Positions 36,232-60,483 of a stretch of DNA of 64,000 bases are shown here, piece by piece. A program made the translations under genes and the position numbers. The DNA lies in assembly GCF_001447785.1 (NCBI RefSeq), contig NW_015166427.1, positions 823,620 through 887,619 on the forward strand, in the 5' to 3' direction. The notes beneath the pieces are model-generated. The model was not told the DNA's origin. It worked only from the letters and a program-made list of their open reading frames with translations, and did no database searches. Source of the DNA: Gekko japonicus. Lineage: Eukaryota. Within the stretch, counting starts at the first letter, position 1. Each line of letters opens with the position of its first letter.

Positions 36232-36336
36232 GTGAGTGCACCTTTACTTCTGAATTAGAATATTTATTGCAAACTGAGTGTACACATATAAGAGCTAGAA
36301 CAATTAGCTTAAAAGAAAGTGTGTCTTTGGTTATAG

Positions 36337-36529
36337 TGCTGGTTTTCAAAGTGGGCAATATCGCCCCCTCGGGGGCGCTGGAATGATCCAGGTGGGCTGG
36401 AACGATCCAGGTGCAGATCCACAAACTGCATCTTTTTGTCCACTTCTTGAAGGTAGATTTCCAGGGGGGCACTGAGTAATTTTTTTTCTGAAAATGGGTC
36501 GGTAGGCCAAATAAGTTTGGGAACCTCTG
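36337..36529. mobile_element. hAT-Charlie-like MITE
   Basis: Ends GTTTGGGAACCTCTG; 8-bp TSD GGTTATAG on both sides. Confidence 0.75.
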
Positions 36530-38203: not shown

Positions 38204-38321
38204 GTGATATTGATTATAGCAGCGTTTTACTTGGGATGTTGATAATGCAGGATGTACAGCTTGGCTTATTTATAGCTGTCATGCCAACGCTTATTCAAGC
38301 TGGAGTTGGTACACATTCCAG
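38204..38321 (+). CDS. TMCO3: TMCO3 exon 8
   Basis: aaacag|GTGAT...TCCAG|gtaaca; [39 protein letters not shown]. Confidence 0.95.
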
Positions 38322-38794
38322 GTAACAAAATTAATCTGTGTGTTTTTATTTCACTTTTCTTTTATCCTGTCTGTCCTCCGAAGATTCTAGGGCAGTACAC
38401 ACAATGATTTTATTTTGCTGTACTAAAGCACTTTCCAGCTTTTAAAATGTGCTTTTAAGCATTTTAACCAATATCCACTGTATGGTGTATACTCGCTGCT
38501 TTTGTGACAGCAATCCAGAGATGTGCTTGCATTACAGCCGCTAAATGTATTGGGAGTTTGACAGTGAGATTCTAACCAGAGTTTAACACCCATTTAAGCT
38601 CAGATGTAAATGGATTTGGAAGGGTGTAACTCTGTTTAGGATTGCATTGTTAGTCAGTTTCCTATTCACCATAATCCTAACCCTACTCCCTCTGCACTGC
38701 AGCCCCTTCAGTTTAGCATGAACATTCCTGAGTACAGGTTGACCAAGAAACTGGTGCATACAACCATTTGTGTGTGTGTGTGTGTGTGTGTATA

Positions 38795-39066
38795 GCCCTG
38801 ACCTGGATAGCCCAGGCTAGCCCAATCTCGTCAGACCTAACCCTGACTAGTATATGGATGGGGGACCTCGAAGGAATACCAGGGGTGTGATACAGAGCTA
38901 GGCCATGGCAAAACCACCTCTGAAATGTCTCTTGCCTTAAAAACAAGTCTAGCTCACCACCTAGTGGTGCATAATACTAATAGCGCTGGAACATTTGGCT
39001 GCCAGGCAATCTTAGGATCTCCTCGCTATACTATACAAACTGGCATATGATAATTATTAATTATTG
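38795..39066 (+). mobile_element. 5S-derived SINE with alternative (TTA)n-ending tail
   Basis: Reverse complement of 877-1168, including the head/tail junction CTTGCCTTAAAAACAAGTCTAGCTCACCACCTAGTGG. Confidence 0.75.
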
Positions 39067-39519
39067 TACATATTAAGGCATCACTCTGGATTATAGCTGG
39101 CATTGTGGTTAAATACAATCAAATAAACAGCATGTTGCAATTGAAATGTTAATTTGTTAGAACATCAGGTTTAAAAATGTTTAAATAGTTAATTGCTATA
39201 AACATTTCAGTACTCCCACTATAAACTAGAGTAAAACAGTTGAGCCTGATTCATTGGACTTATATCCTGCTTTATGTGCTTGGAGCAGCTGACAGCAGTC
39301 TTCATGCAAATAAAAATGTGTTTCTCAGGACTACATTCTCAACTGGTTTTTGAAGCTGAGCATTCTGTGACCTTTTAAACAAAGCTATAGTTGGAAGCTG
39401 TAAATACTAATATGGATTCATGCACACTTTGCTTTTTAATAATATAAATTTTAAAATTGCAAGAAGAAATCATTTTAGAATTAAGAGACTGAAACTGAAT
39501 TTTTTCCCCTCTTTTGCAG

Positions 39520-39753
39520 CATTATCCAGGAAATACTGAGAATATTGACACTGGTTGGACAAATTCTCTTTTCTTTGGCTGCTGTCTTCTTCATGTGTCT
39601 TGTTTTAAAGACTTATCTAATAGGACCATACTACCGCAAGTTGCACGTGGAAAGCAAAGGAAATAAAGAAATCCTAGTTCTAGGAATATCTGCTTTTAAG
39701 ATTTATTAGATGTTTCAATGGAACTGGGCGCTTTTATGTTTTTTATGTTAATG
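39520..39753 (+). CDS. TMCO3: TMCO3 exon 9 (contains a 38-nt frameshifting insertion at 39699-39736)
   Basis: ttgcag|CATTATC...TTAATG|gtaatc; [22 protein letters not shown]...[11 protein letters not shown][insert]MFFMLM. Length is 196 nt without the insert. As assembled there is an in-frame TAG at 39707-39709. Confidence 0.9.
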
Positions 39754-42287
39754 GTAATCTTTCTAAATTTTCATATTTATTAAAATGTACATGGAGTACT
39801 TTTTCATGGGGAAAGGTAGCGTTTGGCCACTAGATATGGGTTTATTGGTGAAAAGAAAACCAGATTTTCTTGTTTGGCTTGTAAAGACTCCTAAATTGGT
39901 ACTATCAATAAATCTAATTTACAGAGCCCTAATATTAACTCTCTAAAACTGAATGTGTTAATTGTGCGTTAGAAACAGAGAAGTGGCTATTATGAATGGG
40001 GGAGCATCCCACCCACCCTTCTAAAATCTTCATGTTGCTCTGTCCGTAGTCGTCTACCCAACAGCAATTATCTGGTGCATTTTGTTTTTAAAGCTTTTGT
40101 GGTTTTAAAAAGCTACTTGTGCTAATAACAGCAAGAGATGCTACAACATCTGAGCTCATGGCTGGGTTGTCCATTTGATCAGGTTTCGAAAATGATCATA
40201 AAATCACTGTAGCGTTGTAAGAGGCTCTCTGTGTGCACACGTGCATACATCCCTATGTATTATAAAATGTATACATTGTTAGTCTTACGGCATGTAAAAG
40301 ACTGGTCTGTTTATTGTGGAATAAGCAGTTATTGGCTAGAGACCACTTCATCAGTTGAGGGGCCTAACAGTGCAATCCTGTGCCATGCCAAATCTAAGCC
40401 CACTGAAATTAGCAAGATCAGATTCTGCGTAAATTCACTGTATGTTACAGAAGAGGGCCTGGCTCAGTGGTATGGTACCTGCTTTGCACACAGAATGTCC
40501 CGGGTTCAGACTCGGGCATCTCCCGCTAAGAGATCTCGGGTAGCAAACTCAAACAAAAACTACATCAAAAGGCCAAGCCAAGTGCGAGCCACCGAAGTGT
40601 TGTGTAATATTCAAGGCACAAATAAATGCAGGATCCAGTTAATATGGATGTGGCCCTTACCTGATTAGTGCCCACTGTTAATGATTGGGCATAGCAAGAT
40701 GAATAGTGGAAAGAATTACTTAGAGGGACAATTGCTTTCGGCAGTGAGCTAACTATACCCAGTATAAAATTAGCTGTCTCGGTTTCCTGTCTCTTAAAAC
40801 CCCTTTTTTCTGTAGTGTTTTGATCTCAAAATCCATTACACAACATCTTGGGGAACTGAAATAGTCATCCATTGATTTCTTCGTATTACCATTTCTAATG
40901 AGTAGTTGCTTCAGTTCAGAGGAGCTGATGTGGTCTAGACATGTTAATAGCAAAGTGGAAATCATCAGTTTAAAAGATAGATTTTTCTCAAGGATGCCCT
41001 TTGGGAATAGGAGTTACAGGGTAGGTCGAGGAAGAAAATAACTGAATGCTACTTGTAACCCAGCTGCTCTTGGCTAAAACCACTCCAGCCTATAAGGGTC
41101 AAGGACCTATAGCACGTCCTGAAAAATGATTTGTTCCCTCTCCAAACGTTGGCTAAATGCCTCCTTTTGTTTAAATTAACATGAGTCTAGAGGAACCATA
41201 AAGACTAACAATATTTTATTCCAGCATTAACTTTTTTGGACTGTTCTTCCTCTGCTGCCCTGGAAACAATGGCTACCAAATGGAAATTAAAACCTAGGGA
41301 CTAGTCCCTACACAAAACCCACTATCAGTGCTGTCTCTGTTGCTTCTGTAAAGTGTTGTGTGTGCAGCCATTTCATTAAGAGCTCATTCAACTGGATATC
41401 TTCTAACATGATGAAAGTTATTATTAGCCAACAGTGTTTTTCGTTTGTTTACATAGCCCAATGAGATTAGTTTTTCCTATAAGGACATAAATGGACACAA
41501 TAATTAAAAATGGGAAAACTCAGAAACCAGTAAGGGTTTTTTTCTCTGTGTCTCCTGTGATATTCTGTAGCAACAGGCTTTAAGGAAAATGTACTTCACC
41601 ATAAAATAACTTCAAAGCATAGTCTGACATGAACCAAGCAAAATTGGAATTTATCAGCAAATTTGCCACTCTTAGACTTGGCCTTACGATTGCTTTCTAT
41701 AGTAAGCTATTATCTCTTTAAGGATTTATGTTGACTGTTCATCTTTTGGTAGTTCATAGCCAGCATACCCAGCTTAATTAGATCTTTCAGTCTTTTGTGT
41801 TCTTCATAATCATTTTGTAAAAATGTTGTAAAGAAACTCCCTTCTCTGTGCACTTGTGGTACTACAAATACACCCTGTGTCACATGACCTTTGAATGCAA
41901 GTCGTTTCTAAGCCTAGAAATCTTTTAATTCTTCCTTTGCTCCGAAATAGAAATCAGATTGGAGATTTTACCTCTTTTCTTAGAAGATACAGCAGAGCTA
42001 TGATTTTTAGCTGCGATTTAAGTATGCAAAATCTTATGTATCTGTGATAGATTTTCACAGCCGTCTGAATGGGGTCTAGCTTTTTCTACACTTTAGTAAT
42101 CTGTTTAGAACTAGTAAATTAAGAAGTAGCATGAGGTAGATCTAAAGATATAACTACATACCGAGAGGTAAGCATTTCTTGCGTCTGCTGAAGTATGTCT
42201 GGCCCATGAAAGCTTACTCTACAATAGCCTCTAAGGTACCTTATATAAATGTGTTCACAATCCAGGTTTGTTTCTCATTGTTGCAAC

Positions 42288-42464
42288 TAGAGCTGTCAAC
42301 TGCCTGGAGAAAAAAAGCCTTTTAATAGAGGCTTAACGGCATGTTATTTACCAGGTTATGTTATTTATCTCCTTGCCATAGAAAGTTTCAGAACCTCAAT
42401 TTCTATACATTAAGCCTGTCTTAAAGGGACAGGACATTTTTCTTGAGCCCTGTTGGTAACTGTA
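42288..42464. mobile_element. hAT MITE (degenerate TIRs)
   Basis: 8-bp TSD GTTGCAAC; related copy at about 50371-50555. Confidence 0.65.
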
Positions 42465-43143
42465 GTTGCAACATAGGGCATTTTATAATTCGTAAAGAGA
42501 TTAGAATTTTTAGAAGCCTTAACAGAATTGGATCACTTCATATGCCTATATAGCATCATGCTTTCTTTTCTACATTGTAATTATTAAAACCCTAATAAGG
42601 AAGCAACTTTTTACATTAAATGAAGTAGACTTTCTTTCCAACAGGGGTAGCCATGTTAGTCTGTTACAAAGACTAAATAGCAGAGGGGTTTTGTTTTGTG
42701 GCACCACAAAGTTATTGTGGCACAAGCTTTTGCAGAACCAGAGCTCACTTTTTCAAATGCATGAAGTGTGGACCTCAGTGGGCAGAAGTATATACATAGA
42801 TAGCTACAAAGATAAAAAGAATGGGGAATGGGAAGAAGTACTGTGAAATAAGGTGTATTACATTACCATGCAGAGAATGAATGAAAGCCAGATCCAATGA
42901 GTGAATGATTCAGTTAGACTAGAACACTCCCAACAGGTGATAAACTGACCAGATAAGGGGATCAGTGTTTCTGAAGAGACGATAGCTTTCTACAGTGAAC
43001 TGAACACCCTAGTCTCTATGCTTTCTGTAAGATTTAAGTATGCAAAATTTAAGTATAACCTTGCATTTTCATGCAAGGAATTCATTGAAGCAAGTTACCA
43101 TTCAGAAAACTATCATCTCTTTTTGTTTCCTCTCTCCAAACAG

Positions 43144-43294
43144 ATTACAGATTTATTAGATGTTTCAATGGAACTGGGATGCTTTCTTTCAGGAGCACTT
43201 ATTTCTTCTCAGGGTCACATGGTTACTGAAGAGATCATGTCCTGCATTGAACCAATACGTGACTTCCTTGCCATCATATTCTTTGCATCAATTG
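43144..43294 (+). CDS. TMCO3: TMCO3 exon 10
   Basis: aaacag|ATTACA...ATTG|gtaatt; [50 protein letters not shown]. Confidence 0.96.
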
Positions 43295-43955
43295 GTAATT
43301 GTCACAGTAATGCATACAAACGATGTTTAATTTCACTAGTTTACCAGGCAAAGAAGAAAGAGGGCATCTTCTGTATTTTGCTGGTGAAGCAGAGCACCTT
43401 GGTAGCAGTGGAATCAGGTGTTGTGATGGCACAAAATGTTCGTGAACATTGTAGTTGCTCAGGGAACAAAGAACTGAGGGCCATTAAGCATGTTTTTCTT
43501 GAATAGGAGCCCCCCTTGACTTATGGCAAATTGCTTTTGAAACAAAAAGGATATTCCAGATCAGTTTGTGATATGCTTGGGGAGAAGCTGATAAAAGAAA
43601 AAGGAGTACAAAAAACCCCACCAACTACTATTTTGAGTCTGACAGAATCTTCGGTGTCTGCTTCTCTGAGAGAACAGAATGCTGTCAGTTTGGTTAAAAT
43701 ATCATGCAGGTCCTAGAGACAGGAGTAGCCTTGTGGGGTGTGAGGGGTAGAAAGAGGCCCGGAAGGTAGGGGAACTAAGAGGGCATGGTGCTGAAGAAGG
43801 ACAAGGTGGTTGGATATGGGGGGGGGGGAGGCAAAGTAGGTAATGGATTGGGGGGGGAACTGGAGGACAATAATACTAGCACGTTATGTCTTCAACTGGT
43901 TGTAGTATTGTTTTAAGTGTTTTAATCGTTTTTATTGTTATTTATGCATTGTTTT

Positions 43956-44298
43956 GGGAGCTGCGGTGGCTCAAGTGGTTAAGACGCTGAACTGCAGGCT
44001 GTGGACGGTCAGTAGTTCAGCAGTTCGAGACCCGAGTGTGCCGCATGACGGAGTGAGCTCCCATCTCTAGTTCCAGCTCCTGCCAACCTAGCAGTTCGAA
44101 AGCAAGAAATTGCAAGTAGATAAATAGGTACCACTTCAGTGGGAAGGTAACAGCGTTCCGTGCACCTTGGTGTTTAGTCATGCCGGCCACATGACCACAG
44201 AAACGTCTTCGGACAGCACTGGCTCTTCGGCTTTGAAACGGAGATTCAACCCTAGAGTTGGATTCGACTGGCTTTCAAGCAAGGGAACCTTTACCTTT
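43956..44298 (+). mobile_element. Full-length Sauria SINE inserted in an L2-type tail
   Basis: tRNA-like head GGTGGCTCAAGTGGTTAAGACG, core CCTAGCAGTTCGAAAGC..GTAGATAAATAGGTACCAC, ACCTTT tail, TSD TTTATGCATTGTTTT. Confidence 0.88.
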
Positions 44299-45246
44299 AT
44301 GCATTGTTTTATGTAAGCGAACCTTTATCTTTACCTTTATGCATTGTTTTATGTAAGCCGCCCTGAGCCAGCTTCGGCTGGAAAGGCGGGGTAGAAATCT
44401 GATCAAATAAATAAATAAATAAATAAAATGCTTTGAGGAAGAGAGGGTACATGAACTTGATCAGGAGACTATTTCATATGTTGAACTGGCTGTGTTAGTT
44501 GCAGGCTCCTAGTGTCCTTTAAAGCTGTAATTTTAAGCACAGCTATTTAGAAATGGATATTTGTAACTTAAATTTTAAATACATTTTGGATTTGGGTGGA
44601 AATGTAACCAGTAACCAGTTATGATGGCTTGGCTCCTAACTACTTACCGGTGAGAGTCAAGTCCATGGATTAGGATTTCCTAGCCTCTCCCTAGCTGCTG
44701 CTTCCCACTGAAATTTTGCTCCTGGGTGTAAAGAGATCTTAAACACTAGCTATTTACTAAGTTACAAATTCTAGAGTCAGTAGAAACTGGGGAGGTACCG
44801 TTTCATGTTCATCAAACAAAAGCAAATTAGTTAACAGACACTCCTGTAACTAGCTGTATGTGTCCCAAGGGGTTTAAAATCTCCTCCCTCCTTAAAAGCA
44901 GCTCTGTTGTGCTCTGTAACTTTCTGAAATTGATAAGAACTGTTCAAACAATTCACAGTATGACATAAAGGTCACCTGCTCAAAGAAAAATGTAGAAACA
45001 TCCACTTTATGTCTCCTTTATCGGGACCACTCACAAGGTTCGCCGTATGTGTAGGACCTTGTAAGACCAGGATTCTGGTCATGTTTTGTTTAGTGGTGTG
45101 GGACCTGAGATTATCAGATATTTTGGTCCTGCCATTCACAAGAATGGACCAAAGTATAGAACTGGCAAATATCTAACTCAAATGGCTAGGCTTGAGCACA
45201 GCCTGAAAGGGGGGAAAATAACTTCCAGAGTTTGTGATATGCATAA

Positions 45247-45465
45247 AAAAGGTAAAGGTTCCCTTGCTCGAAAGCCAGTCGAATCCGACTCTAGGGTTGC
45301 GGTGCTCATCTCCGTTTCAAAGCCGAAGAGCCAGCGCTGTCCGAAGACGTTTCCGTGGTCATGTGGCCGGCATGACTAAACACCAAGGCGCGCGGAACGC
45401 TGTTACCTTCCCACCAAAGTGGTACCTATTTATCTACTTGCAATTTCTTGCTTTCGAACTGCTAG
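45247..45465 (-). mobile_element. 5-prime-truncated Sauria SINE
   Basis: AAAGGTAAAGGTTCCC tail and reverse core; ATGCATAAA flanks both sides. Confidence 0.85.
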
Positions 45466-47422
45466 ATATAGATGCATAAAGTAGGTTGAATCCTAAAGCT
45501 CCCTTCCACTTGCATCAGATTTCTGCTGATTTCCCCTCCCCCTTTCTCGAGCATGCACCCTGCAGTTTCCTAGTGTCCACCAGTCCACAGGGGCAGGGTT
45601 TTAGGGCATATAGCAGGCTATAGTGGGAAGCAAAAGCCAGAAAAATTCTTCTGTACGAGCACCTCTTGGAATCTATCTCATTATCACCTAGGAAGTATTT
45701 ATCAAACCTTCATTTACTTTGTTGCCAGTGAACATGTCAAAACAGGTTTCCAGCCTAGGGAGTGGAGCTGTGCCTTTGCCATATGTAGATTTCCCCCAGG
45801 TCTGATCAGGTCCAGTCCTCTTATCCTGCCCAGGGCCAGGGCAGCTCCTCTTCCTGGTCCCCCCCCCTTTACCTGTGCCTTCTCAGGCTTTCCCAGCAAG
45901 CTTACCTTCCTCTCTTTCTACTTTCTCCTGAGAACTCCATGCTGGTCAGGTTTGCATGAGGCTGGCCACAGCCCCCAGCTTCTCCCCAACCAAAGGAACT
46001 CTGCCCCCCCCACTCCCCGACACTGCCCTCAGCATCTAATTGGTGTGGGGAAGGCTGTCCTGTGGGTGGTGCAGCCCTGCTCTTACTGGGACCATCATGC
46101 TGCCGCCGCCATTCCAGGTGGTATCCTGCCCCTTCTTGGAGTAGCTGTTGCATTTGGCCCAGTGGGTCAGGCCTCCTGTGTCCTCTGCTGCTGTGCTGTC
46201 GTCTTGCCACATTACATATTAGTCTGCAGTTCCATGTGTGCTTACCTGGGAATAAGGGGGAAAGTATCAGGCTGCAACTGTGTCATAGTCACTCTAGACA
46301 AAATCAATTATCCCACATTTATTTAAATTCTATCCCACTTCATCTCAATAAATAATATATATCTGACTATATTAAAGTACATAAACTTACGCTACTGTGA
46401 CCAGAAAACTGAGGGTATAAAAAATGCTTCCACCCAAGAATTCACCTCAGTGTTTCAGTTATTGTGACTGTTCTCTGTCCATAGCCCTGCTGGCAGAAGG
46501 GAGGGGGGTTGGAGATAGGAGCCACTGCTCTCCCAGCACTCAAGCTTTTAGTTATGCTAATGGATAACTGTATCATCCCCTGCTAGTAAGTCACACCTTG
46601 AACCATAAAGCTGGAAAGACTAAAGTGATAGAAGGAGAACTCTTCCTTTGGGACAGAAAGGGCATCCCAAAAGTGTGTGTGGGGGGAGAGAACTTATAAG
46701 AACTTTGGACATAAGGAAGAGGGGTTTCTTCCATTTTGGGCAGCTCTTAAGATGGGCTCAAGCCATGGTGAACAAAGCTTCCACCAAGGATCTCCATCTT
46801 TTCCGTGATTGCAGGGGACAGTGGAGAGGAGTAATGATGAACTTGTACTGCAACTTAAAGCAAAGTTTGCCTGTCTTAAATCGGACATCATTAAGGAAGT
46901 ACTTATAGAAGGGAGAGAGGACAGTGTGTTTTCACCATTTCTTTGTTCCCTTGCTAAGCCCAAACATAACGTGTATTCTTTCATTAACTTGTTAAACTTC
47001 CTTATATTTTGAACCATCTGGAAACTCACTGTTCCTATTTAGTCCTGCATTCTGAAATGTGGTAACAGGGAGGGGCAGCAGAGAAGTTTACCATCCCTGG
47101 AGCACAATAGCTTTAACAGGCAAAGTTGTGATGAATTCTGTATACTTGTACAAATGTTGTGGGAGGCAGGGCAACTAGGCAGCACAGGTACAGAGTGTTA
47201 GATGTATGACTCTGTCTGGCAGGAGATACTCCCAAGAGTCATTAATGGTTACTCAGTTTGTAACTGGCACCATTGAGGAGCAAGGGGAAAGGGTGCACTG
47301 CCAAAGAGAGACTTGAAGCAGATGTAGGGTTCTTCTTACTTCTGAGGGTCCAATCAGGAGGAACAGGGAAGGGCTTCACAGAGGAACAGAAATTGAAATG
47401 AGCTTCTCATTCTTTTACATAG

Positions 47423-47595
47423 CAGTAAAAAGCCCAGTAGCAACTTTAGGACTAACAAACTTTATTGTAGCATCAGCTTTCGAGAAACATAGCCCTCGTT
47501 GTCAGATGCACCTAGCGATGAGGGCTGTGTTTCTCGAAAGCTTATCCTGCAATAACATTTGTTAGTCTTAAAGATGCTACTGGGCTTTTTACTAT
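47423..47595. mobile_element. Penelope-like inverted terminal pair (about 170-bp palindrome)
   Basis: AGTAAAAAGCCCAGTAGCA...CTTTCGAGAAACA / TGTTTCTCGAAAG...TGCTACTGGGCTTTTTACT; each arm has a degenerate CTGANGA..GAAAGCT core. Confidence 0.65.
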
Positions 47596-49213
47596 TTTGC
47601 AGCCACACAGCTAACTCCTGGATCTATTCTTTTACATGTTGACTTTGTTCCTTGGTTATGTGGAATATTCAAACATGGTATGTTCAAATGTAAATTATTT
47701 TTATCTCACTTGATGCAGAAGATGGAAAAATCTAAGGCCGCAAGAAACAAGAGGAATCAAATACTGTGTGGTATAAAGGCCTTTTGCCATCCACTGTTGC
47801 AGGAGCTCATGTGCTTGGCAACTTCCCAGAGTGCAGTCCTGAAGCAAATATCTAAAATATTATTTATTCTGCCACTTAATTTTTTTTTTGCCAACGTCAT
47901 ATCCTTGAGTGTTGGTGGTTTAATAAACCAATGAAGTGTAATAGCAGTCATCACTAAGAAGGCTTTGAATCTTGGGTCAGATACTTTATTTAGGCGTGAT
48001 GCTGGCAAGGCAAAATAACTTACCTATGGGACTTCATGCTCCCATGCAGTTTAATTTAAACCAGGGCTGCTGCCACCTATTCAAAACAGCTCTGGTGCTT
48101 AGTTTAAAATATCAGCACAATACCCACCTGGGCTACCAGTCTCTGGAGTGCTTTTTGAGCAGGTAAAGTTGCTTTTGCATGGATGGCAGCCCAGTTTAAA
48201 TGAAAGTCACAAGGTTAATTGCTTTTTCCCCATTAGCATCATGTTTAAATCAAGCCTTGAGGTTTACAGCAATGTGAACTGGCTATAACAATACTATTTT
48301 TAATAGGGCTGAGTTCAGATTGGGTGGGCTAATGTTTTTGTTCCGAGTGAAAATTTGTTGTTGATATTTGGTGGAGAGTCAGGATGGTTATAAATAAGCC
48401 CAAAGAACTCATTCAGTGTCTCTTCAGGGTAAAGGCAATGGTTTCTGCCTTCACTTTAACTTTACTTAGATGCTGTTAGATAACCAAACATGATTGGTTG
48501 CATGGTGCTTAATGCCCACATGCATATATTGACCACAAAACATTTGGCCCTGAAGCAACAGAATGAGGAATTTAGCAGGTGCCTATAGTATAGGCTGTAA
48601 ACAAGATGAATATCAGTAAGTTGTACCTCAGAAAACATTTCGTCTTTCCTCACATACCTTCTTTCTGTACTGAACATGCAAAAATACAAAAAAATGTTTT
48701 ATTTAACTGCCCTAATTTTAGAACACCACTGTATTTCATTCACTATTTTGAAAGATGAAAATATTTAATACGATTTTTTACCCTGCCCCCAGCTCCATTT
48801 TCTAGTTTTTCTACTTCAGGCCTCAGGCCCCTGTATTTTCCCCTTGGCATTTGCATCTTGGTTAGAGTGCTGGACTGGACTGAGATTCAAATACCTGCAT
48901 TGAAGCTAGCTAGGTGACCTTGGGTCAGTCATACACTCTTAGCCTAACTTACCTCACAGAGTTGTGAGGATCAAATGAAGGAAAGGAGAATGGTATAAGC
49001 TGCTTTGGATCCCCAGTAGGGATTGGCAGGGTATAATTATGTAGCATAATTTTAATTATGTAGCATAATGAAGCCATCAAAATCTTGTGACGCGCTAGGC
49101 TTTTTATTTGACACAAATAACATTTCATCATTACATTCTTATATACTTTAATACTTAAAAGACAAAACTAAAGTAAAAGAACTGTTTCTTCCCACCCCTC
49201 CTTTCTCTTGCAG

Positions 49214-49293
49214 GTCTTCACGTTTTTCCTACATTTGTCATTTATGAACTCACAGTCCTGCTGTTCCTTACATTTTCAGTTGTAATAATGAAG
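49214..49293 (+). CDS. TMCO3: TMCO3 exon 11
   Basis: ttgcag|GTCTTCAC...ATGAAG|gtatac; [27 protein letters not shown]. Confidence 0.95.
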
Positions 49294-49390
49294 GTATACT
49301 TTTAAACATCTTATAATACAACTAAATGTTAAATGTAAAATTGAGGTATCATGTTATCAGGTGGGTAGCCATGTTGGTCCAAAGCATATG

Positions 49391-49786
49391 TAGGGCTGCC
49401 AGACTCCCCCCATTGGAGGCGGGGGTCCCCTGCTGACAGGCTTCACCTCCTCACTGCCGATCAACTGGCCAGTGGGAGGGGGGACTTACCACGAAAAAGA
49501 GGGAGATCCACCTGATGTACACCGACGTGTCTACATCACTGCCCACATGACCCGGAAGTGACATCATCACATCCGGGACATTGGGGTGACACTGGTATTT
49601 GGGCAAAACTCTGTGGTAGAAGCCAAATTTACCATAGAGTTTTTGCCCAAGTACCAGAGCATCACCCCAACATGATGTCACTTCCGGGTCACATTGGCAG
49701 TGACGTAGACATGTTGCTGTATGTCAAGTGGGCCTCCCTACTAGTCTGGGTAAGTCCCCCCTGCCCTGCTGGACCTGGCAACCCTA
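49391..49786. mobile_element. hAT MITE with long internal inverted repeat
   Basis: TAGGGCTGCCAG...CTGGCAACCCTA; internal palindrome at about 49525-49715; relative at about 53143-53478. Confidence 0.75.
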
Positions 49787-51471
49787 AGCAGCAGTTATTA
49801 CAATGCTCAGGACAATGGAACTTCCAGAGCTTAATAGAGATATCAGTTTCTTATCTCTCTATACATGGTAACGTCATTCAGTTCTTGCATTTCTTTGTAA
49901 ACTCTTTTACTATGCTGTTATTTGCTGCTATTCATAGGTCATATCTACTGCCTTAATTCAATTTTAGCTATATTTATTGCTCAGTTACTTATGCATCTTG
50001 ATGCTAATTAGCCCTTCCTGTCAACACCCTCCCCACCCTCTACCTATATGTAACGATTGGTGACTTTCGTTTCAGTGTATCTAAAGAAGTGTGCAGGCAC
50101 AGGAAAGCTTATACCCAGAATAAAACTTTGTTGGTCTTAAAGGTGCCACTGGGCTTAAATTCAAATATCAGCTTTCCCATTTTAAAAATTTTCCACAGGG
50201 AGGTACTTGTGCTTCTGATAAAGAGAAATGGAGCCAGGCCCAACTGAAAATCTTCCTGCATTTCAGTTAACAGGTGTGGCCAAATACTGTTATTGGTTGC
50301 CCTATGCATCAGAAGCGATACCTCCAGCCACTTCTGTTGGGCTTTTATGTTGAGTTACTTGCACCGTCCTTATGGTTGCCAGCTGTCTAGAGAAAAAAAA
50401 TGTTCTGTCCTTTTAATAGATAGAGGCTTTAATAGATAGAGGCTTAATGGGATGTTTACCTCCATGCCATGAAAAACCTCAGTGGCCCATTTCCACACAG
50501 TAAGCCTCTTTTTAAAGGACACAACATTTCCCCCATGCCTGTTGGCAAACCCTTTCAGTCGTATAAATGGATATTTGATATTGGACGGTGGCATTCTGTT
50601 GTGTAAGAGTACCATGGCAGCTTTTTAATTGGGATTTGACCATAGTCCAGGGCTGATGTAGTGACAGCCCCATTTATACTGTTATGCTGGAGATTGCTCC
50701 CTGAGTCAGGATTGCTTAAATGATGCTGGGGGTAACATTGTGGGGGCAAAACCAATAATCTGCTTTTTAAAGGAAAAAAGGAAAGGCTGTACAATCCAGC
50801 AAACTGCATTGTAAGTGCATGGGGACAGAGGGTTTCCTTGATTGTAAGATATAGGATTCTGTTGTAGTACTGATGGTTCAAGCTGCTGTTTGCACTCTCG
50901 GAGTGAATGCAAATTTATTGGATTAGTTTGTGTAATATGTGTTTCTTGTTTGTGGTGGTGGTGGTATGAAACTATATTTGATTAGCTCTTCCAATTAAGG
51001 TATTTTCTATCCTGTTTCAAGTTTACAAAGCGTAAGCCATCTTTAACATCAACAAAAATACAAACAATAATGGTGATAGGGTTACAACACCAGTCAGTTG
51101 GCTGTTTTCCTTATTTCACATAAACATGTACATGATTGTGTGGGCTGTAAAATGTAGACACGGGTTATAAGTGAAATATGCATCTCACAAAAAAACCTTC
51201 TGAAATGCATTGTACTATACTTTGTGCTACATACACCAAATCATTAATTCTTGGCTTGACTTGATTAATCTAGAGAAACTACTGCCCCCCATTTCTGTAG
51301 CAGCAGTGAGACATAAAAGTATAAGGTTTTTGGTTGCTGTTGCAAAACCCCAAAACCTTATATCATTATCCATTGGGCAATATGATTCCTTCTGCTTATT
51401 TCTTTTTAAGTTAACTTGCCTGTGTTTTTCCACTGTATGTCTAAAAAAACCTCTCTCTATTTCTCTCAAAG

Positions 51472-51621
51472 TTTTTCCTGGCGGTAGTTGTCCTTTCTCT
51501 GATTCTTCCAAAGAGCAGTCAGTACATCAAATGGATTGTATCTGCAGGTTTGGCTCAAGTCAGTGAGTTTTCCTTTGTCTTGGGAAGTAGAGCACGCAGA
51601 GCAGGGATAATTTCTCGAGAG
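51472..51621 (+). CDS. TMCO3: TMCO3 exon 12
   Basis: tcaaag|TTTTTC...CGAGAG|gtgagt; [50 protein letters not shown]. Confidence 0.96.
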
Positions 51622-51990
51622 GTGAGTTTTGACACTGTAAGGATTTTTTCATAGATTGAAGAATATATTTAAAAACTGTACTAAAATTGTTAACTATATG
51701 AATGGCTGTATTTCCCCCCTAACTTTACCCCCCCCCAGTAGTAAGCTTTAGTAGAAGTTGAAACAGGCATTTTCTCTTATATTTCCAGCAACTTGTAGCT
51801 CTCTGAGCTATTTCTTTTTCACCTGCAAAAGACTGAGATACTGTATTTTTTCTCCTGCAGACCACAAACCAGTTTGAGGGAGGGATAATTTGGAAATTAG
51901 ATGAGAAAGGGTTAAGCAGCCCCCCCCCCACTGTTCCTCTTGCCTTAAACTTCTTTGCACAGCTGCTTGTTGATTTTAAATGTGAATAGC

Positions 51991-52559
51991 CAGGGGTCTT
52001 TTTGTAGAAAAAGAGCTGCAGGAGCTCATTAGCATATGCTAATGAGCTACTGGGCTATTAGCATATGCCACACCCCCTGACATCACCGGAAGTGATGGCA
52101 GAAGGGGAAGCAAAAGGGGGGGAGGCATCTTCAAAAGCCTCCCCTCCCCTTGGGGGGGGAGCGAAGAGAGAAGGGGTTTAAACTTTAAACCCCTTCTCAC
52201 TAGAGTTGGGCCACAGGAGGAAAGACAGAAGGAAAGAGAGAGAGTAGAGAGAAGGAAATAAGGGAGGAAAGAGGGAAAGAAACAGAAGGAAAAGGAGGGC
52301 AAGAAAGAGAAGGGAAGAAGGAGGGAAACAGGGAAAGGAGGAAAAAAGAGAAGAAGGCAGGAAAGAAAGAAAGAGGGGAAGAAGGAAGGAAAGAGGGAAA
52401 GGAGAGAAGGAAAGGAGGAAAAGAGAGGAAGGAAGANNNNNNNNNNNNNNNNNNNNNNNNNNNNNNNNNNNNNNNNNNNNNNGACCCGGGGGCGCGGCTT
52501 GCCGCCACTCGCACTGGCGGAGTGGCGCTCCGGAGGGCTCTGGCCCGAAAAGACCCCTG
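51991..52559. mobile_element. hAT-type non-autonomous element with purine-rich interior (spans an N gap)
   Basis: TIR CAGGGGTCTTTTT...AAAAAGACCCCTG; 8-bp TSD TGAATAGC. Confidence 0.85.
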
Positions 52560-54448
52560 TGAATAGCAAAGGTTCTATTGGTATGAGTTGTATTTTTGTT
52601 CTCCCAGTTAAAAGGTCTCCTGCTTTCTAGCTCTTGATGCCTTTATCTGATCGATTCTTGGCTGCTTTTGCTTAATGTGCTGTAATATTACCAATGAGTG
52701 GGACAATTTAGGGCTTGATGGTTTAGTTCTAACAGAGGATGCAGCTGGTCTTTCCCATGCTAGTTCCGCTTTCCTAACTTTCCTCCCTCCTCTTTGCAGC
52801 CTTCCCCTGCTTCCTTCGTTCCATCTCCCTTCTCCCTCTCCTTTTGCTCCTTTTGTCTTTGCCCTCCTGAGCTTCTTTCTTTCCCCTGACTGACTTCAAG
52901 TTTCAGTATGAAACTGCTGCATCCATTTGGGTTAGCTCAAGCAACTACAACTTATCTGAAATTTGTCTAGGTAATCTAGAAAGGCTCCTGAGATCTCTTG
53001 AGGTAATATCACAAGATCTCAGCATTTTAAAACTTTTAAATCTTCTTTTATCCCCTCCTTTATTGTTTAAAGTTTTCTGCAAACCCCACAATTTACAGAA
53101 ACATTATTTCTTCCTGTACCTGGATCTATTGTGTAGACTGTTTGGGGTTGTTCTACCCCAGTTGGGAGCAGGGGATTGCCCGGTTTTTAGGGCTCTCCTG
53201 GTCAGTGGGAGGAAATCCCTCCCAACAGCAATGTCGGGCAATGTGCCTATGTCACCCGGAAGTGACGTAGACACATTGGTGAGGACGCTCTGGTTTTTGG
53301 GTTTGAGGGCAGTTTTACCATAGAATTTTGCCCCCAAACCAGTGTTGCCCCTGATGTGCCTATGTCACTTCCGGGTGACATAGGCATGGCGCGCAACATC
53401 ATTTCTGGGTAACGTCAGCATGTCAGGGGTCACACTTCTGGCTCCCAGAATGTCCCCACACACCCCTGCCAACGTCTTTAATTTAGACTTTTTGATCCAC
53501 ACTCTGGGGTGTGGTTCAGAATTAGATATATAGATGAAAATATCTGAGTAGATCAAATAAAGGATTTGAATTTTAAGGCTTGTACATGCTATGGGATTTC
53601 AAATGGCATCTTGTTGATGCTAATCAGTTGATTATCACTTTATTTTCAAAAGCTTGTTAGTCAGTTCTGCATAGAAACTATATTGGTAGTAGAAGCGAAC
53701 AGTATGTGGTCTATAGTGCACTCTTATGTTAGACCTACTAGCTTATTTGATTTTTAGTACCAAAAAAGTTTCCAGAGATGAGTTTGAATGCTCAAAGGCA
53801 GGAAGAGCCCAAAATTTGTCAAGATTTTCAAAAGGTGATTCAGGGTTATCCTCACTCAGGAATAGTATTCCTAGTAAAAGGTGAAATATTTATGTGATCT
53901 GAAGAGAAACCAGAGGAATATATTATGAGAAAATGGTAGAGTGTTGAGTAGGTTGTTATAGTGGTTTTTAAAGTTATAATGTTACATGATTTTCTTAAAA
54001 ATTCAAGTATTTGAATCAAGGATTGTCCTTTATACTTGCAAAAAATGCCCTTTATACTGTGTTTTGGTAATTTTACCTTTTATTCTTAACACTTTATTCT
54101 TAACACCTGAGCCTTCGGGGAGGGCGGGATATAAATTAAAAAAAAAGAAATAAATAAAACACTTATCCCTTTTTTAATTTTGTATTCCCTCAAAAGTTAA
54201 AAATTATTGTTTTTTTAAAAAAAGGAATAGCATTTCTAGCATCTTCAGTTACGGGAATCTGGGGTTCAGGAAGACTGAGAACCTTCTGATTTAGTAACCG
54301 AGGCTGGGTTACAAGGACTTAACAGTCTGATTTGGTTTGAGGCACGCTCACATGTTTCATACTATAAAATAATCACAGTGCTTTTTGCCAAATATGCTTG
54401 CTGTGGACATTTAAATCAATTACAACCCTTTTGATTCTCAATTTCCAG

Positions 54449-54562
54449 GTCTACCTCCTTATATTGAGTGTAACTACTCTAAGCCTGTTGCTTGCGCCAG
54501 CATTGTGGAGAGCTGCAATTATGAAATGTGTACCGAAACCAGAAAGACGATTGAGCTCTTGA
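54449..54562 (+). CDS. TMCO3: TMCO3 last coding exon
   Basis: ttccag|GTCTAC...TCTTGA; [37 protein letters not shown]. Confidence 0.95.
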
Positions 54563-55884
54563 AGATGTTTATTAAAGAAGCTTCCATGTAGGACATGTCT
54601 CTGTAGTCATTCCATTTCTTACACAGAAAACAAAGTTTTATGTTCCTCTGTTTAGTTAGAAGCTTTACACTGATGAAACAAAATGTAACAATTTTCATAA
54701 AACATGTTCTTGTTCTTAAAACGTGGAAGATCTGTGTTAAATTGGCTTTGCAAAATTGGATTTTTCTAAGAACAAAAAGCAATCTATGAAACTAATCATT
54801 AACTACTGTGCCTTTTTTGATCATTTGCAATCACTGCAGAGAACTGTTCATTTTATGGTGCCTGTGGCACTGCTCTAGAACTTTTCAGTACATTTTTCTA
54901 GTCAATATCAGCTGCAAAACATGTATTTTCTGTGGTATATGAAGGTTAGTTTATTTCAAAGATAATGTTAAACTATTAAATCTATTTAAGGATTTAAAAT
55001 TCATATTCCTAAAGAATGGTGTTTTCTGGTTTATCCATGTCACTGTCTTCTACTTACTGTAACTTTGATTTTTCATACTGTAATTGTTGATTCATAAATA
55101 ATTTATTGTGATTAGAAACAGACCTGTTGTATATGTTATCAAGAATTTCTTGTTTATCACGTTAATTGTTTGAGACCAAAGCTCAACAGAAATTGATTTT
55201 TTTTTGGGGGGGGAGACATATATTTGGGGGGTTGTCTCTTCGCCAGATAGGCGATTAAACAAATAGCAGCAAGAAATAATTTGAGTGTTTTCAGAAACTT
55301 TGTAACTCAGAAAATACATTCTCAGACAGAAGAAAGATAAGTGTTCAGCTATTATACTTTCAATTATAACTGAAAATGTAAATATATGGCTACTGTTATC
55401 CTTTTTGCAATAATGCACTGGTATAGGCAGCTTTCTCTGTTGGTTGAAACATAAATAGTTCCAGCAGTGCTTGCTGAATTCTATACAGAACTTCAGTATT
55501 AAAAACTGAAGCCTCTTTATAGCTGAAATTGATTGACTAATGCTTACCTTTCTAAAAAAATTTAAATGGATGTAAATCTGTAGTATTTCCTACTGGGCAG
55601 TCCTGATAATTTTCCTGAAACCATTCTTTACTGTAAGAAATTTTTGCTTCAGTATACTAAGAACTTTAACTCAGATATTTCTTTTTTTATCTTTAACATG
55701 TCTCTCATATGATATTGTAAAGGTTACTCATGTGGTTTTCCCATTATATCACATCTAAATATAGTGCAAGGAAATCACCATTTATTTATGTGAAACATTT
55801 GTATCCTACCTTTCTGTCCAATCAGGCAGCAAATAATTTAAAAATCAGTAACAATCAACTTTAGAAAGACTGAAGGAATGAATA

Positions 55885-57340
55885 ATTTATTACGGTCCAT
55901 GACCAGATACAAGTTCACACAGAAAATTACACAGAAAATTAGAGCAGATATAGAATTATAGCAGAGTAAAATACATATAAAAGTTAATTAAAATAATTAA
56001 AATACATATAAAGTTAATAAGATAACATCATAAAACAATGTAATTATAAACCTAAAAGTCAACACAGGCCCTATTTAATCAAATTCCAAAATCTAGATCG
56101 GAACTCAGAGCTTAGAAACAGAACTAAAATTTATTGTGTACTCTAATTGCCTGAGCACGGAATTTGGCTGTTGCTTTACTAATAGCTGGTTTTTCATCTG
56201 CTAATAGTTTAAGCATGCCCTGTCTGACACAGTGGTGGATCTATCAACAAGGGACAGAAATGTTGTGTTGTGTATTTCTTTATAAAGCGGGCAGCAAAAA
56301 AACAATGTTCTATAGTTTCCACCTCGGCTAGGGGGCAAGGGGCAGGTCCTCTCAGAATATCGGATTTTCTTCCTTCCAAAAGCCTGGATGGCATGGCGTC
56401 ACATCTGGCCAGTGTAAAAGCCCTCTGATGAGGGGGGGAAATCTAAAGTTTTAAAATATGTAGCCATTATCATGATGTATCTCGTCTCCTCAGAGGCCCT
56501 GAAGTTCGGAGACTTTGTTAAATCTCGCTGGTGGCCCATGTCACAGATCTTTTACTTAAATAAAGATTTAGCCTGATCAAAGGATTGTAACAAAAGAGTG
56601 CCAGGTTGAAAACCCATTTTCCAAGGGCTTCCTCAACTATATGTAACCATCTTGGCAAGAATCTTGCAGTACAAGGGGGAGAAGGCCTTTTGGTATCATA
56701 TATATCTTATTATAAGCCATTGAAAGGCGGATGCCAAGAAAATCCTCACCTCAGTCCTCATTTGGCCAGTTTCTAGACAAAGGAGGAACGCGGGGGGGGG
56801 GGGCTGTAAAATGGCACAAAGAAATTTAGATTGTAACTTTTCAAGTAAATTCAGACTTGTAGCCAATATACCAGTAAAGGTGCCATACAGAAGTTGGGCT
56901 ACTACTTTTGCCTGAAAGAGCTTCAGTGCAGCAGGTACATAGAGACCCCCCCTTAGAACGGTAAACTATCGCATGCATAGTCCTTTCGGCGCACTCTGCT
57001 CTCAATTTACACCTTAAAGACTAACAAGAAGTGAGCAATGACTCATGAAAGCTCTTACCCTGCCACAAATTTTGTTGGTCTTTAAGGTGCTACTGGACCC
57101 TTGCTCTTTTGTAAACAAGAAGGGAGCATCAAATGAAACAAAAGCTTTTTAACGGTGAGGGATGACAGAGGAAGCAAATATGGAAGCAAACTAAGGCATT
57201 TTATATTAATTCTAATTCTCCTCATTTAAAGCAGTCCATTGGTGAATATGGTTGATCATAGAATCTTAATAGACTCCAATGAAATCTTGAAACCTTGTTG
57301 AGCCAAGTGAATGTGGTTTCATATACCATGAGCACTAAAT
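55885..57340 (-). mobile_element. Degenerate non-LTR retrotransposon 3-prime region (clade uncertain)
   Basis: Minus strand AFTLARCDAMPSRLLEGR...CPLAEVETIEHCFF (C-terminal CCHC-like motif); 3-prime end GGTCATGGACCGTAATAAA; upper boundary approximate. Confidence 0.55.
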
Positions 57341-57819
57341 TTTAGAGCAGATGGGGGGTATGCCTGGCCCTATATTTAGGTTACTGACCACCGATTTTTT
57401 TGTTTGCCAATACTCAACTCCTTCTTGATTGAGTCTGCTTTAACAGTTCCATCTTGCTCTGCAAGTCTCTGTTGCATCCTCTTTAAATTTTCCGTATTCT
57501 CTCAGGTAAATAGAATCTCCTTCTCTAGCCCCCTCCCCCCCATTGTAAACCTTTTAAAGACTTCTATGTTTAGGCCTGCACTGCAAGATTTATAGTGTAA
57601 TGCGCTACCCATGCAGCACCAAGTCTGTTGTACTCAATAGTTTTACGTTAGAATAGAGTTCATAGGGTTGCACTGTTAATAACAATTTAGAAATTTAACC
57701 GGGGTAACTCAGTACATAGACCACTTTTAGTCAACGTGTCTGCAAGGCTTCCAAGGGAGCCATAGGAACTAATGGGGGGGGCACTGTGGTACTACAAAGA
57801 AGTTAGCCCTTCCCCCCTC

Positions 57820-58242
57820 ACTCTGAAGTCTCACGGGGCCGCCCTGGGCTGCGCTTGCAAAACAGCAACGGCCAATCTGCCACCTGGCTAGGTCAACAAC
57901 AGCCGAGCGGTCTCGCGCTCTAAATTCCCGCGCGCTCAGCAGTCCGGGAGGAGGAAGGCGTGGTGCCATCGCGAAGGCGCGAAAAGCTTGCGCATGCGCG
58001 CCCTCCCCGATAGGCTGGCTGAAGCGTGTATGTTGGCGATGATGATGAGATGGGGGAGGGAAGCACCAATCTCCCCGCGTGTGCTTATGTGGGGCACGTT
58101 ACACCCCGTGACGTCAGCGCGCAGCGTCACGCCGGAGGGACGCACAAAAGTGTAAGTTTCAATTTTTCTCTCCTTCCTGCCAACCGCCGAAAAGCCCATA
58201 ATTGTGGGGTCATGGCGGGGGGTGGTGGTGGTGAGGGGCCGG
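57820..58242 (+). promoter_or_regulatory. TFDP1: TFDP1 CpG-island promoter and presumed non-coding exon 1
   Basis: CCAAT (57872, 58066), E2F-type TTCCCGCG (57925) and GGCGCGAAAA (57976-57985), NRF1 TGCGCATGCGC (57989), CRE TGACGTCA (58109-58116). CpG-rich sequence continues to about 59900. Confidence 0.8.
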
Positions 58243-58372
58243 AATATAGCACTACTTCCCTCGTTCCTCTTGTGGTGCTCAAACAAGTGAAGAATTAAGT
58301 TCTTGGATTTGGTAACATGGCAAAAGATGCTGGCCTAATTGAAGCTAATGGAGAACTAAAGGTTTTTATAGA
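58243..58372 (+). other. TFDP1: Spliced TFDP1 exon2+exon3 cDNA segment located at the exon 1 / intron 1 boundary
   Basis: 58243-58328 is identical to 60398-60483 and is joined without an intron to GCTGGCCTAATTGAAGCTAATGGAGAACTAAAGGTTTTTATAGA. It reads MAKD|AGLIEANGELKVFI, the N-terminus of DP-1. Confidence 0.9.
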
Positions 58373-60471
58373 AGGAGCGAGAGGGGGCAGGAAAAAGTGA
58401 GCCTTGTCTCGACTGGGCGAAATGTTGGCAGGGGCAGGCAATGATGGCGCTTTGGAGAGAGATGGTCGTGCAGCCCGACCTTAATGCAGGATGCACACGG
58501 AAGCGAGTCTCGCTGAATGCGGCCGGGGAGGGGGGGGAGAGAGAGAGGCTTGCTTCCAGTCAAGCATGCACAGGATTGCAGCCCGATCCTCAACCCGGGA
58601 AGTGGGACTCGTTACTTTCCATGGCGCTTACTCCCCCCAGTTGAGTATCGCAGCCCGATTCTAGCCCAAATTTGACGTGGGAACGAACACCCCGTTAATT
58701 TCAATCGCTTCCCCCNNNNNNNNNNNNNNNNNNNNNNNNNNNNNNNNNNNNNNNNNNNNNNNNNNNNNNNNNNNNNNNNNNNNNNNNNNNNNNNNNNNNN
58801 NNNNNNNNNNNNNNNNNNNNNNNNNNNNNNNNNNNNNNNNNNNNNNNNNNNNNNNNNNNNNNNNNNNNNNNNNNNNNNNNNNNNNNNNNNNNNNNNNNNN
58901 NNNNNNNNNNNNNNNNNNNNNNNNNNNNNNNNNNNNNNNNNNNNNNNNNNNNNNNNNNNNNNNNNNNNNNNNNNNNNNNNNNNNNNNNNNNNNNNNNNNN
59001 NNNNNNNNNNNNNNNNNNNNNNNNNNNNNNNNNNNNNNNNNNNTTTTTTCACTTTGCTCTTCTCCCTCCCGCTAATGATTCCTGGAGGCGAGTTGATTCT
59101 GTCTCATGAAGGGCTCCTGCGACTGGGAAGAAGGGGGAGCAGAGGAAGAAGAAGAACGCCCCATTCTTTCAAAGCAGAGCTACTTTGCCGGGCAGGCGGA
59201 GAGAGAGACGAGAGAAAGAGCCGAAGCGGCGACAGAAACACCTCCTCTCCCCTTTCTCCCCACCCCCGAGGGGGTTTTGAGGAGGGCCGTGCACTGCACA
59301 TGTGCAGTTGGCATCTCTGTCTCTCTCTCTTTTCCGTGCAGAGCGGCGCTGTGGGTGGGGGATTGCTCGGGAGTGTGTGTTGTGGGGGATGGAGTTTGCT
59401 CTCCATTTCTCCTCCTCCACTTCTTCAGGTACTGAGGCGCCTTTGGCGACCGGTGTGTGTGTGGGGGATAAGAGGCTGGCAGCGGCGAGGACAGGTGGGA
59501 GAGGAAGAGGCAGCGGCGGAGCTGCTGCGGGGGAAACGTTTTAGGCGGGACGGTTTGATGCGAAGAAGAGATCCTCTTCCTCCTTTCCCTTCTCTCGTTC
59601 CTCTCCTCCGACCCCTCCTCCCGCTCGCGCCTTTCCCGGGTCGGGTGATACACGAATGAGGGTGAGATTGGCGCATGGGTGGCCCATATCTTTTTTCCTC
59701 AGACGTCAGTTATTACTGGGCTAGACTTCCAGGGCTGTGCTCGGGCTTCTGAGGCCCTGGAGAGGGGGCGGGAAGGTGCAGGAGGCGGGGGCTGGCGGGA
59801 GTTGCTCTGTGAACCATAGATGCTGTTTGCCTGGCTGCTTTTTTTCTTTTTTTGCAGGGGCTCCGAGGATCAACCTCCTTTGCCCTGCTTGTTAGCAGCA
59901 TATGCATTCCCTGGGCCTGCTTGGATGCTTGCTTGGCGAGGCAGTGTGCATTTTGTTCAGGATTGGGGACAGTGTGCTAAGGGGGTGGGCCCCCAGGGCC
60001 TAGCTGCTCTAATGCAGGTCAGGCACAGGCAGTCCCCCTCCTCCCCTTGCACAATACAGGATTAGTTGTGCATGTTTTTATGTATGAAGCATAGTTATGC
60101 TTTTCTGTGCCCTAGTATATGGCTGGAAATTATCTCCCCCCCCCCCTTCAGTGATCCTATGCTGTCAATTCAGGCTTTCTTTTCTGGATGTGCAAAAAGA
60201 AGAAGCCTGATATCTTGAAGTTTGTATTTTCCTCACTTAAGGGAAAGCTGTTGCAAGTCTTTAGTGGTTTTACATTTGATCTCTGCATTTTGTTTTTCAG
60301 CCATTTTGTCAAAAATAAAGAAGTGCCTAACAGTAATCTCCATTTTTTAAATGTTCCACTTCACTAACTTTGTTGTTCTCTTTAACTTTGTTTTTAGAAT
60401 ATAGCACTACTTCCCTCGTTCCTCTTGTGGTGCTCAAACAAGTGAAGAATTAAGTTCTTGGATTTGGTAAC

Positions 60472-60483
60472 ATGGCAAAAGAT
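60472..60483 (+). CDS. TFDP1: TFDP1 first coding exon (exon 60398-60483; encodes MAKD); gene continues beyond the window
   Basis: tttttag|AATATAGC...AACATGGCAAAAGAT|gtaagt with a good polypyrimidine tract; synteny downstream of TMCO3. Confidence 0.92.

What the first reader, a model, noticed from the sequence alone, without database searches (positions are those of the whole stretch)
39692..58372. Two independent own-transcript insertions within 19 kb: a systematic process
Two different genes each show downstream-exon sequence placed at or near the 3-prime end of an upstream exon. Such events should be very rare, so two in one window imply a common cause. Either this assembly has genome-wide RNA-read contamination, which would create false pseudogene calls, or this lineage has frequent RNA-templated repair at exon ends. 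The genome clearly carries many reverse-transcriptase element families, but the artefact remains the default explanation.
Basis: inference. Interest (0 to 1): 0.7.

Follow-up and report, generated by a model that had tools for sequence, protein, structure and literature searches.

The report
Retrocopy pieces misassembled into parent genes
Two lizard genes show short intron-free pieces of their own message pasted at exon ends in this genome draft, but DNA from other animals lacks these joins and intron-free DNA copies of both genes exist, so this is likely an ordinary assembly mix-up between a gene and its retrocopy, not new biology.

Summary
In detail: TMCO3 exon 8 has 38 extra bases (39691-39728, 30 identical to exon 9); TFDP1 exon 1 is followed by exon 2 and 44 bases of exon 3 (58243-58372). 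Two more cases lie nearby (TFDP1 exon 7|8; a GRTP1-like exon 1|2): 4 events in 3 of about 17 genes over 1.44 Mb. Neither window join appears in DNA contigs of two other animals or a related species; case 2 replaces about 140 intron bases rather than inserting. Neither proposed cause fits best. The TMCO3 piece opens with a 22-base deletion junction found in three genomic retrocopies and not in RNA reads. TFDP1 exon junctions stand in two DNA runs at single-copy depth. The GRTP1-like gene has two spliced copies inside transposons. Seven loci of typically abundant transcripts show no case. Verdict: likely gene/retrocopy assembly chimeras (0.85). The assembly's own reads were not available. Earlier notes of this scan flagged other likely assembly errors and retrocopies in this genome; my three look-ups showed none describing this pattern.

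The parts
26548..54562 (+). TMCO3-like gene, 12 coding exons (K+/H+ antiporter family)
   Evidence: tblastn with TMCO3-containing proteins P0099 and P0109; last two exons and stop read from sequence
39520..39753 (+). TMCO3 coding exon 8, containing the paste
   Evidence: AG/GT ends; translation
39691..39728 (+). Case 1: 38 extra bases = retrocopy-type exon 8 end, the 22-base deletion junction, then 30 bases of exon 9; frameshift
   Evidence: skipped in X1, X2, X18 contigs and X22 RNA reads; junction shared with 3 retrocopies
43144..43294 (+). TMCO3 coding exon 9 (43149-43178 is the duplicated part)
43188..43189 (+). TT, the retrocopy allele, standing in the gene's exon 9
   Evidence: RNA 44 of 44 and 42 of 43 reads, and X18, read AG; retrocopies read TT; 3 of 3 bird/mammal proteins with the motif have Ala
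58174..58242 (+). 3' part of TFDP1 exon 1 (5' limit taken from the old retro-fragment L002, uncertain)
   Evidence: donor GTAAGT follows 58242 in X2
58243..58328 (+). Case 2a: pasted copy of TFDP1 exon 2 (86 bases)
   Evidence: exact match to 60398-60483
58329..58372 (+). Case 2b: pasted first 44 bases of TFDP1 exon 3
   Evidence: exact match to C6717:912180-912223
58373..58715 (+). true intron 1 resumes (GC about 58%); N gap follows at 58716-59043
   Evidence: X1, X2, X18 contigs
60398..60483 (+). TFDP1 exon 2 in its proper place
   Evidence: AG/GT ends; inside one 2,719-base X18 contig with intron flanks

Best explanation
Both pasted pieces are in this assembly and absent from three independent DNA runs, and they are likely assembly chimeras in which the draft followed an intron-free DNA copy of the same gene for 38-130 bases at an exon end. 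Shown: spliced DNA copies exist for TMCO3 (three retrocopies in G000), for the GRTP1-like gene (two transposon-borne copies in G000) and, as junction contigs with raised exon depth, for TFDP1 (DNA runs X1, X2). Shown: each paste begins or ends where the gene path and the spliced path part. Inferred: the shared exons behave as repeats in a short-read graph and break the contig at exon ends; a gap-filling or local-consensus step then extends along the spliced path, most easily where the true intron is hard to read (GC-rich, poly-C), and rejoins the far side. Inferred: the young TFDP1 copy collapsed onto the gene, which is why it has no locus of its own in G000. The result is false frameshifts and lost splice sites.
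For:: joint 39690>39729 (38 skipped) at depth 75.3 in X1 and 36.2 in X2; X18 contig 9 runs straight through; 17 RNA reads show the normal exon 8|9 junction and 0 the pasted one; the 21-base motif across the left junction occurs 4 times in G000 (window plus 3 retrocopies; reversed control 0); the retrocopies also carry the T at 39691 and the TT at 43188-9 that the window has; 59-base junction contigs exon 1|2 (depth 67.8, 58.6) and exon 2|3 (79, 58.8) with no differences, exon 2 depth 163.6 and 158.3, in X1 and X2; none listed in X18; the true intron start (about 140 bases) is replaced by 130; two more events; the GRTP1-like one has 98-99% identical spliced copies elsewhere in G000. Controls without an event and without a close spliced copy found: LAMP1, DCUN1D2, CUL4A (one family or one exon tested each). 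All four events would break a reading frame or a splice site.
Against: The assembly's own reads were not available. The case 1 paste has the gene's TG at 39710-11 where all three assembled retrocopies have CA, so a further unassembled copy or a mixed consensus must be assumed. No young TFDP1 retrocopy locus was found in G000. In X1 and X2 the contig ending at 58242 is unbroken for 575 bases, so no 5' flank of a retrocopy is seen. A retrocopy is not sufficient: 0 of 3 out-of-sample parents with one (RPS3A, TPT1, PDCD5) show a paste. Three of the four events lie 9-19 kb from the nearest remaining N gap. X1 and X2 are labelled DNA only by guess.
Confidence: 0.85

Rival explanations
1. RNA or cDNA reads entered the assembly (gap filling or polishing) and wrote spliced sequence over exon ends.
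For: Cases 2, 3 and 4 match the gene's own exons exactly. No young TFDP1 copy is assembled. The unbroken contig upstream of 58242 is what cDNA would give. mRNA contamination of DNA libraries was suspected in six human samples (PMC3847774, passages read).
Against: Case 1 carries a junction absent from the laid RNA reads and present in retrocopies. TFDP1 junction contigs sit at single-copy depth in two separate DNA runs and are absent from a third. No normal TMCO3 mRNA junction is among the rows shown for X1 or X2 (18 joints and 4 between-letter rows hidden). 0 events in 7 loci (102 kb) of typically abundant transcripts, four of them with N gaps (abundance is general knowledge, not measured).
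Confidence: 0.07
2. Real alleles of the sequenced animal: short gene-conversion or RNA-templated repair tracts written from a retrocopy or cDNA onto the parent gene.
For: RNA-templated break repair exists in human cells (PMC12065846, abstract and passages read). The genome makes many retrocopies. The source animal's reads were not seen.
Against: Absent from X1, X2 and X18. No whole intron is removed. Four damaging events in three conserved genes within 200 kb of one consensus. Case 2 is nearly length-matched to the stretch it replaces (130 against about 140), and X2's own contigs break inside that stretch.
Confidence: 0.05

Closest known systems
Collapsed duplications and chimeric contigs in genome assemblies (PMC11259980, introduction passages read)
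   Same: A sequence present twice (gene exon and retrocopy) is represented once and non-adjacent segments are misjoined.
   Different: Here the misjoin is only 30-130 bases long, sits at an exon end inside an otherwise correct locus, and returns to the right intron. My searches (listings only for most hits) showed no paper on this exact pattern; that is three searches of a partial library.
Non-reference retroduplications detected from DNA reads (Abyzov et al. 2013, PMC3847774, passages read)
   Same: Exon-junction sequence in DNA plus raised exon depth marks a retrocopy missing from the reference, and its variants can be mistaken for variants of the parent gene.
   Different: That work concerns read mapping to a finished reference; here the confusion is built into the draft. 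The third line of evidence, the insertion point, was not found for TFDP1.
RNA-templated double-strand-break repair / whole intron deletion (PMC12065846, abstract and passages read)
   Same: Spliced sequence appears at the gene's own locus.
   Different: Its signature is precise loss of a whole intron; here the introns and downstream exons remain and the spliced piece stops mid-exon.
Pack-TIRs (Tan et al. 2021, PMC8277862, passages read)
   Same: The GRTP1-like donor copies lie in non-autonomous elements with terminal inverted repeats carrying host gene sequence.
   Different: The cargo here is spliced (exon 1|exon 2). The passages I saw describe DNA-level capture; I did not read the whole paper or its supplements.

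Membership tests
Gene/retrocopy assembly chimera | A spliced DNA copy of the same gene exists | tested here: met
   TMCO3: 3 copies in G000; GRTP1-like: 2 copies; TFDP1: junction contigs in X1 and X2, old fragment L002
Gene/retrocopy assembly chimera | The pasted piece carries marks private to the copy | tested here: met
   Case 1: 22-base deletion junction and T at 39691; but TG at 39710-11 is gene-type. Cases 2-4 carry no distinguishing mark.
Gene/retrocopy assembly chimera | The chimeric join is absent from independent DNA | tested here: met
Gene/retrocopy assembly chimera | The join is absent from the reads the assembly was built from | not testable with these tools
   No run holding the stretch near-completely was listed; best share 0.56
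Non-reference retroduplication (TFDP1 copy) | Exon-junction sequence in DNA | tested here: met
   59-base junction contigs 1|2 and 2|3 in X1 and X2
Non-reference retroduplication (TFDP1 copy) | Raised depth over exons | tested here: met
   Exon 2 depth 163.6 and 158.3, exon 3 146.8, against 34-74 on flanking single contigs (contig depth is a rough measure)
Non-reference retroduplication (TFDP1 copy) | Insertion site with flanks or poly-A tail | tested here: inconclusive
   Not found in G000; no 5' branch seen; a collapsed copy would not show
RNA-read contamination | Pasted sequence equals the mRNA | tested here: not met
   Not for case 1; cases 2-4 do equal the exons
RNA-read contamination | Junctions absent from DNA libraries | tested here: not met
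   TFDP1; TMCO3 deletion junction in X1 and X2; GRTP1-like, in G000
RNA-read contamination | Events follow transcript abundance | tested here: not met
   0 events in 7 loci chosen as typically abundant and in LAMP1; small sample, expression not measured
RNA-templated repair (whole intron deletion) | Precise loss of a whole intron at the native locus | tested here: not met
   Introns and downstream exons retained in 4 of 4 events
RNA-templated repair (whole intron deletion) | Allele present in the animal's DNA | tested here: inconclusive
   Absent from other animals; source animal not testable

The most novel reading that the evidence does not exclude
The sequenced animal really carries alleles in which short spliced tracts were written back from retrocopies, transposon cargo or cDNA onto the parent genes at exon ends, four times in 200 kb: frequent copy-to-parent conversion in a reptile germ line.
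Probability: 0.05. Interest if true: 0.7.

Novelty: not a real feature. Interest (0 to 1): 0.17.

Why it matters
As biology it most likely does not. As a caution it does: in this draft, genes that have a retrocopy or transposon-borne spliced copy can show false frameshifts, lost splice sites and wrong residues (3 of about 17 genes in the contig scanned). Calls of gene loss, pseudogenes, intron loss or RNA-templated repair from this genome need read support. The pattern also works as a cheap marker for young retrocopies that the assembly collapsed, as for TFDP1.

Tried and rejected
Target-site duplication for case 1 (the apparent GCTTTTA repeat): rejected, the right copy is the gene's own sequence and the left copy the retrocopy's. 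Alternative splicing as the source of the case 1 junction: rejected, 0 laid RNA reads show it and it does not fall on a GT/AG pair. The old TFDP1 fragment L002 as donor of case 2: rejected, 89% identical and without exon 3. Searches for an assembled young TFDP1 retrocopy by 5' DNA, DP family, whole protein, last exon and 3' end: nothing beyond the gene, its paralogue on C7824 and L002. RNA run X21 laid only 3 reads on case 2: uninformative. No RNA holder listed. A first scan by exact repeats and loose splice motifs was swamped by transposons (344 pairs) and was replaced by a uniqueness filter. The RPSA row was dropped from the abundant-transcript test because the fetched locus was only 68% like the intronless copy and is probably not its parent; it showed no exon-type pair either. 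Only 145 of 872 candidate exons were sent to Pfam, so the gene count is a lower bound. Nearness to remaining N gaps does not explain the events (344, 9,140, 15,515 and 18,804 bases).

Full report
Setting. The window is G000:C6717:823620-887619 of a 2.49-Gb draft in 191,500 contigs. It holds a DCUN1D2-like gene on the minus strand, a TMCO3-like gene (26548-54562) and the start of TFDP1. Protein hits point to a squamate.

Observation. Case 1: 39699-39728 equals 43149-43178, the start of the next TMCO3 exon less 5 bases. Read as it stands, exon 8 shifts frame and stops. Case 2: after TFDP1 exon 1 come all 86 bases of exon 2 and the first 44 of exon 3, whose true place is 30 kb on, outside the window. 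Chance expectation for the shorter match is about 5e-9.

Independent DNA, case 1 (4 of the 24 runs listed were laid). X1 and X2 (organism A, guessed DNA) show the joint 39690>39729 at depth 75.3 and 36.2; X18 (organism B) runs through on one 2,987-base contig; RNA run X22 gives 17 reads with the normal exon 8|9 junction and none with the pasted one. The C at 39729 is the gene's own base in organism A, so the paste is exactly 39691-39728 and the apparent flanking repeat is no target duplication. X1 and X2 also hold a contig with the joint 39698>43149, the left junction of the paste, in DNA.

The donor of case 1. G000 holds three intron-free TMCO3 copies (C34140, two on C15249; 93-97% identical; one keeps the exon 7|8 junction). 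All three lack the same 22 bases across the exon 8|9 junction, which creates the junction that opens the paste; the 21-base motif occurs 4 times in G000, in the window and in these three (reversed control 0). They also carry TT where the window's exon 9 has TT (43188-9), while RNA (44 of 44 and 42 of 43 reads), X18 and 3 of 3 bird/mammal proteins with the motif give AG, Ala. Against a simple copy: the paste has the gene's TG at 39710-11, the three assembled copies CA. A further collapsed copy or a mixed consensus is inferred, not shown.

Independent DNA, case 2 (X1, X2, X18, X21). X1 joins 58242 to 58373 on a 378-base contig with about 140 other letters between (378-208-30). X2 shows a GTAAGT donor after 58242 and breaks inside the same GC-rich, poly-C stretch. 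X18 has 143 unaligned letters before 58373. So 130 spliced bases replace about 140 intron bases. X1 and X2 also hold 59-base contigs across exon 1|2 (depth 67.8, 58.6) and exon 2|3 (79, 58.8) without differences, and exon 2 and 3 contigs at 147-164; X18 lists none. These are two of the three signs of a retrocopy missing from a reference (PMC3847774, passages). The third, an insertion site, was not found: five searches of G000 gave only the gene, a paralogue and an old 89% fragment, and the contig ending at 58242 is unbroken for 575 bases in both runs, which I cannot explain from the calls (graph cleaning next to a repeat is a recalled possibility). X21 laid 3 reads and says nothing.

Is it systematic? 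A self-comparison of 1,439,484 bases of C6717 (all but the first 23.6 kb) left 11 unique same-strand pairs of 22-500 bases at 90% or more; 5 are exon-type by their splice-site ends, judged by eye, and make 4 events. Case 3: the last 62 bases of TFDP1 exon 7 stand before exon 8 in place of its acceptor (C920981-921042 = C921993-922054). Case 4: exon 1 of a TBC-domain gene (GRTP1-like; name recalled from gene order) runs into the first 30 bases of exon 2 and back into a 74% GC intron. G000 holds two 98-99% identical spliced exon 1|2 copies of it inside elements with terminal inverted repeats. The contig holds about 17 recognisable genes (145 of 872 candidate exons tested; names partly recalled), so 3 of about 17 are hit, all within 200 kb.

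Controls. Three unaffected genes tested for a close spliced copy (LAMP1 by family, DCUN1D2 and CUL4A by one exon each) gave only paralogues; a collapsed copy would be missed. Seven loci chosen beforehand as typically abundant transcripts (RPS3A, two GAPDH-family genes, RPL3 and its paralogue, RPL4, TPT1; 102 kb) show 0 events, though four have N gaps; an eighth (RPSA family) was dropped as not the parent. This speaks against RNA reads. Against my own reading, three parents with retrocopies (RPS3A 85-96%, TPT1 97-98%, PDCD5 91-100%) are intact: a copy is not enough, a local break is also needed. The scan cannot see a paste whose source exon is in a gap.

Mechanism. Shown: the pastes, their absence from three DNA runs for cases 1 and 2, spliced DNA copies for all three genes (for TFDP1 as junction contigs only), and switch points where gene and copy part. 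Inferred: exons shared with a copy act as repeats in a short-read graph; contigs break at exon ends; a gap-filling or consensus step extends along the spliced path and is joined to the far side. Collapsed duplications and chimeric contigs are a known class of error (PMC11259980, passages). RNA-templated repair leaves whole-intron deletions (PMC12065846, abstract and passages), which none of the 4 events is. Five paper searches were made; none of the listed titles or abstract openings describes this exact short paste, which is weak evidence. No supplements were read.

Verdict. Not a real feature with probability about 0.92 (gene/copy chimera 0.85, RNA reads 0.07); real alleles 0.05. Interest 0.17: a useful warning about this draft, and a pointer to a collapsed TFDP1 retrocopy and to transposons with spliced cargo.

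Noticed in passing
L091:557-1877 (G000:C16853) and L092:1214-2357 (G000:C10077): Two non-autonomous elements of 1.1-1.3 kb with the same terminal inverted repeats and 3-base target duplications (AGA; TAT) carry spliced exon 1|exon 2 of the GRTP1-like gene at 98-99% identity, among other GC-rich pieces. A Pack-TIR with spliced cargo; the 3-base duplication suggests PIF/Harbinger (recalled). Likely real and worth its own look.
   Followed up: partly
window 58213-58358, runs X1 and X2: Junction contigs and raised exon depth point to a young, near-identical spliced TFDP1 DNA copy in organism A, not listed in organism B and not assembled in G000.
   Followed up: partly
   Followed up: partly
L016/L017 (G000:C15249:13699-20605) and L012 (C34140): The TMCO3 retrocopy is split by a SINE and other sequence inside exon 8, and a 532-base piece of it is duplicated at 99%.
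   Followed up: partly
L002:1475-1630 (G000:C536): Old 89% fragment with only TFDP1 exon 1|exon 2, ending at the exon 2 boundary.
   Followed up: partly
proteins P0086, P0090, P0099, P0109, P0120: 5 of 120 listed TFDP1 relatives from birds and mammals are TMCO3-TFDP1 fused models: merged gene predictions or read-through, not tested.
   Followed up: no
L189 (G000:C8334:14014-14490): Intronless RPSA-family frame of 213 codons without stops; no matching intron-bearing parent turned up among the 4 matches.
   Followed up: no
window 14188-14755, 18194-18411, 19024-19405, 19588-19814, 20066-20259: Several short near-exact local tandem duplications (periods 108-284) in the DCUN1D2-like region; may also be gap-closing errors.
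   Followed up: no
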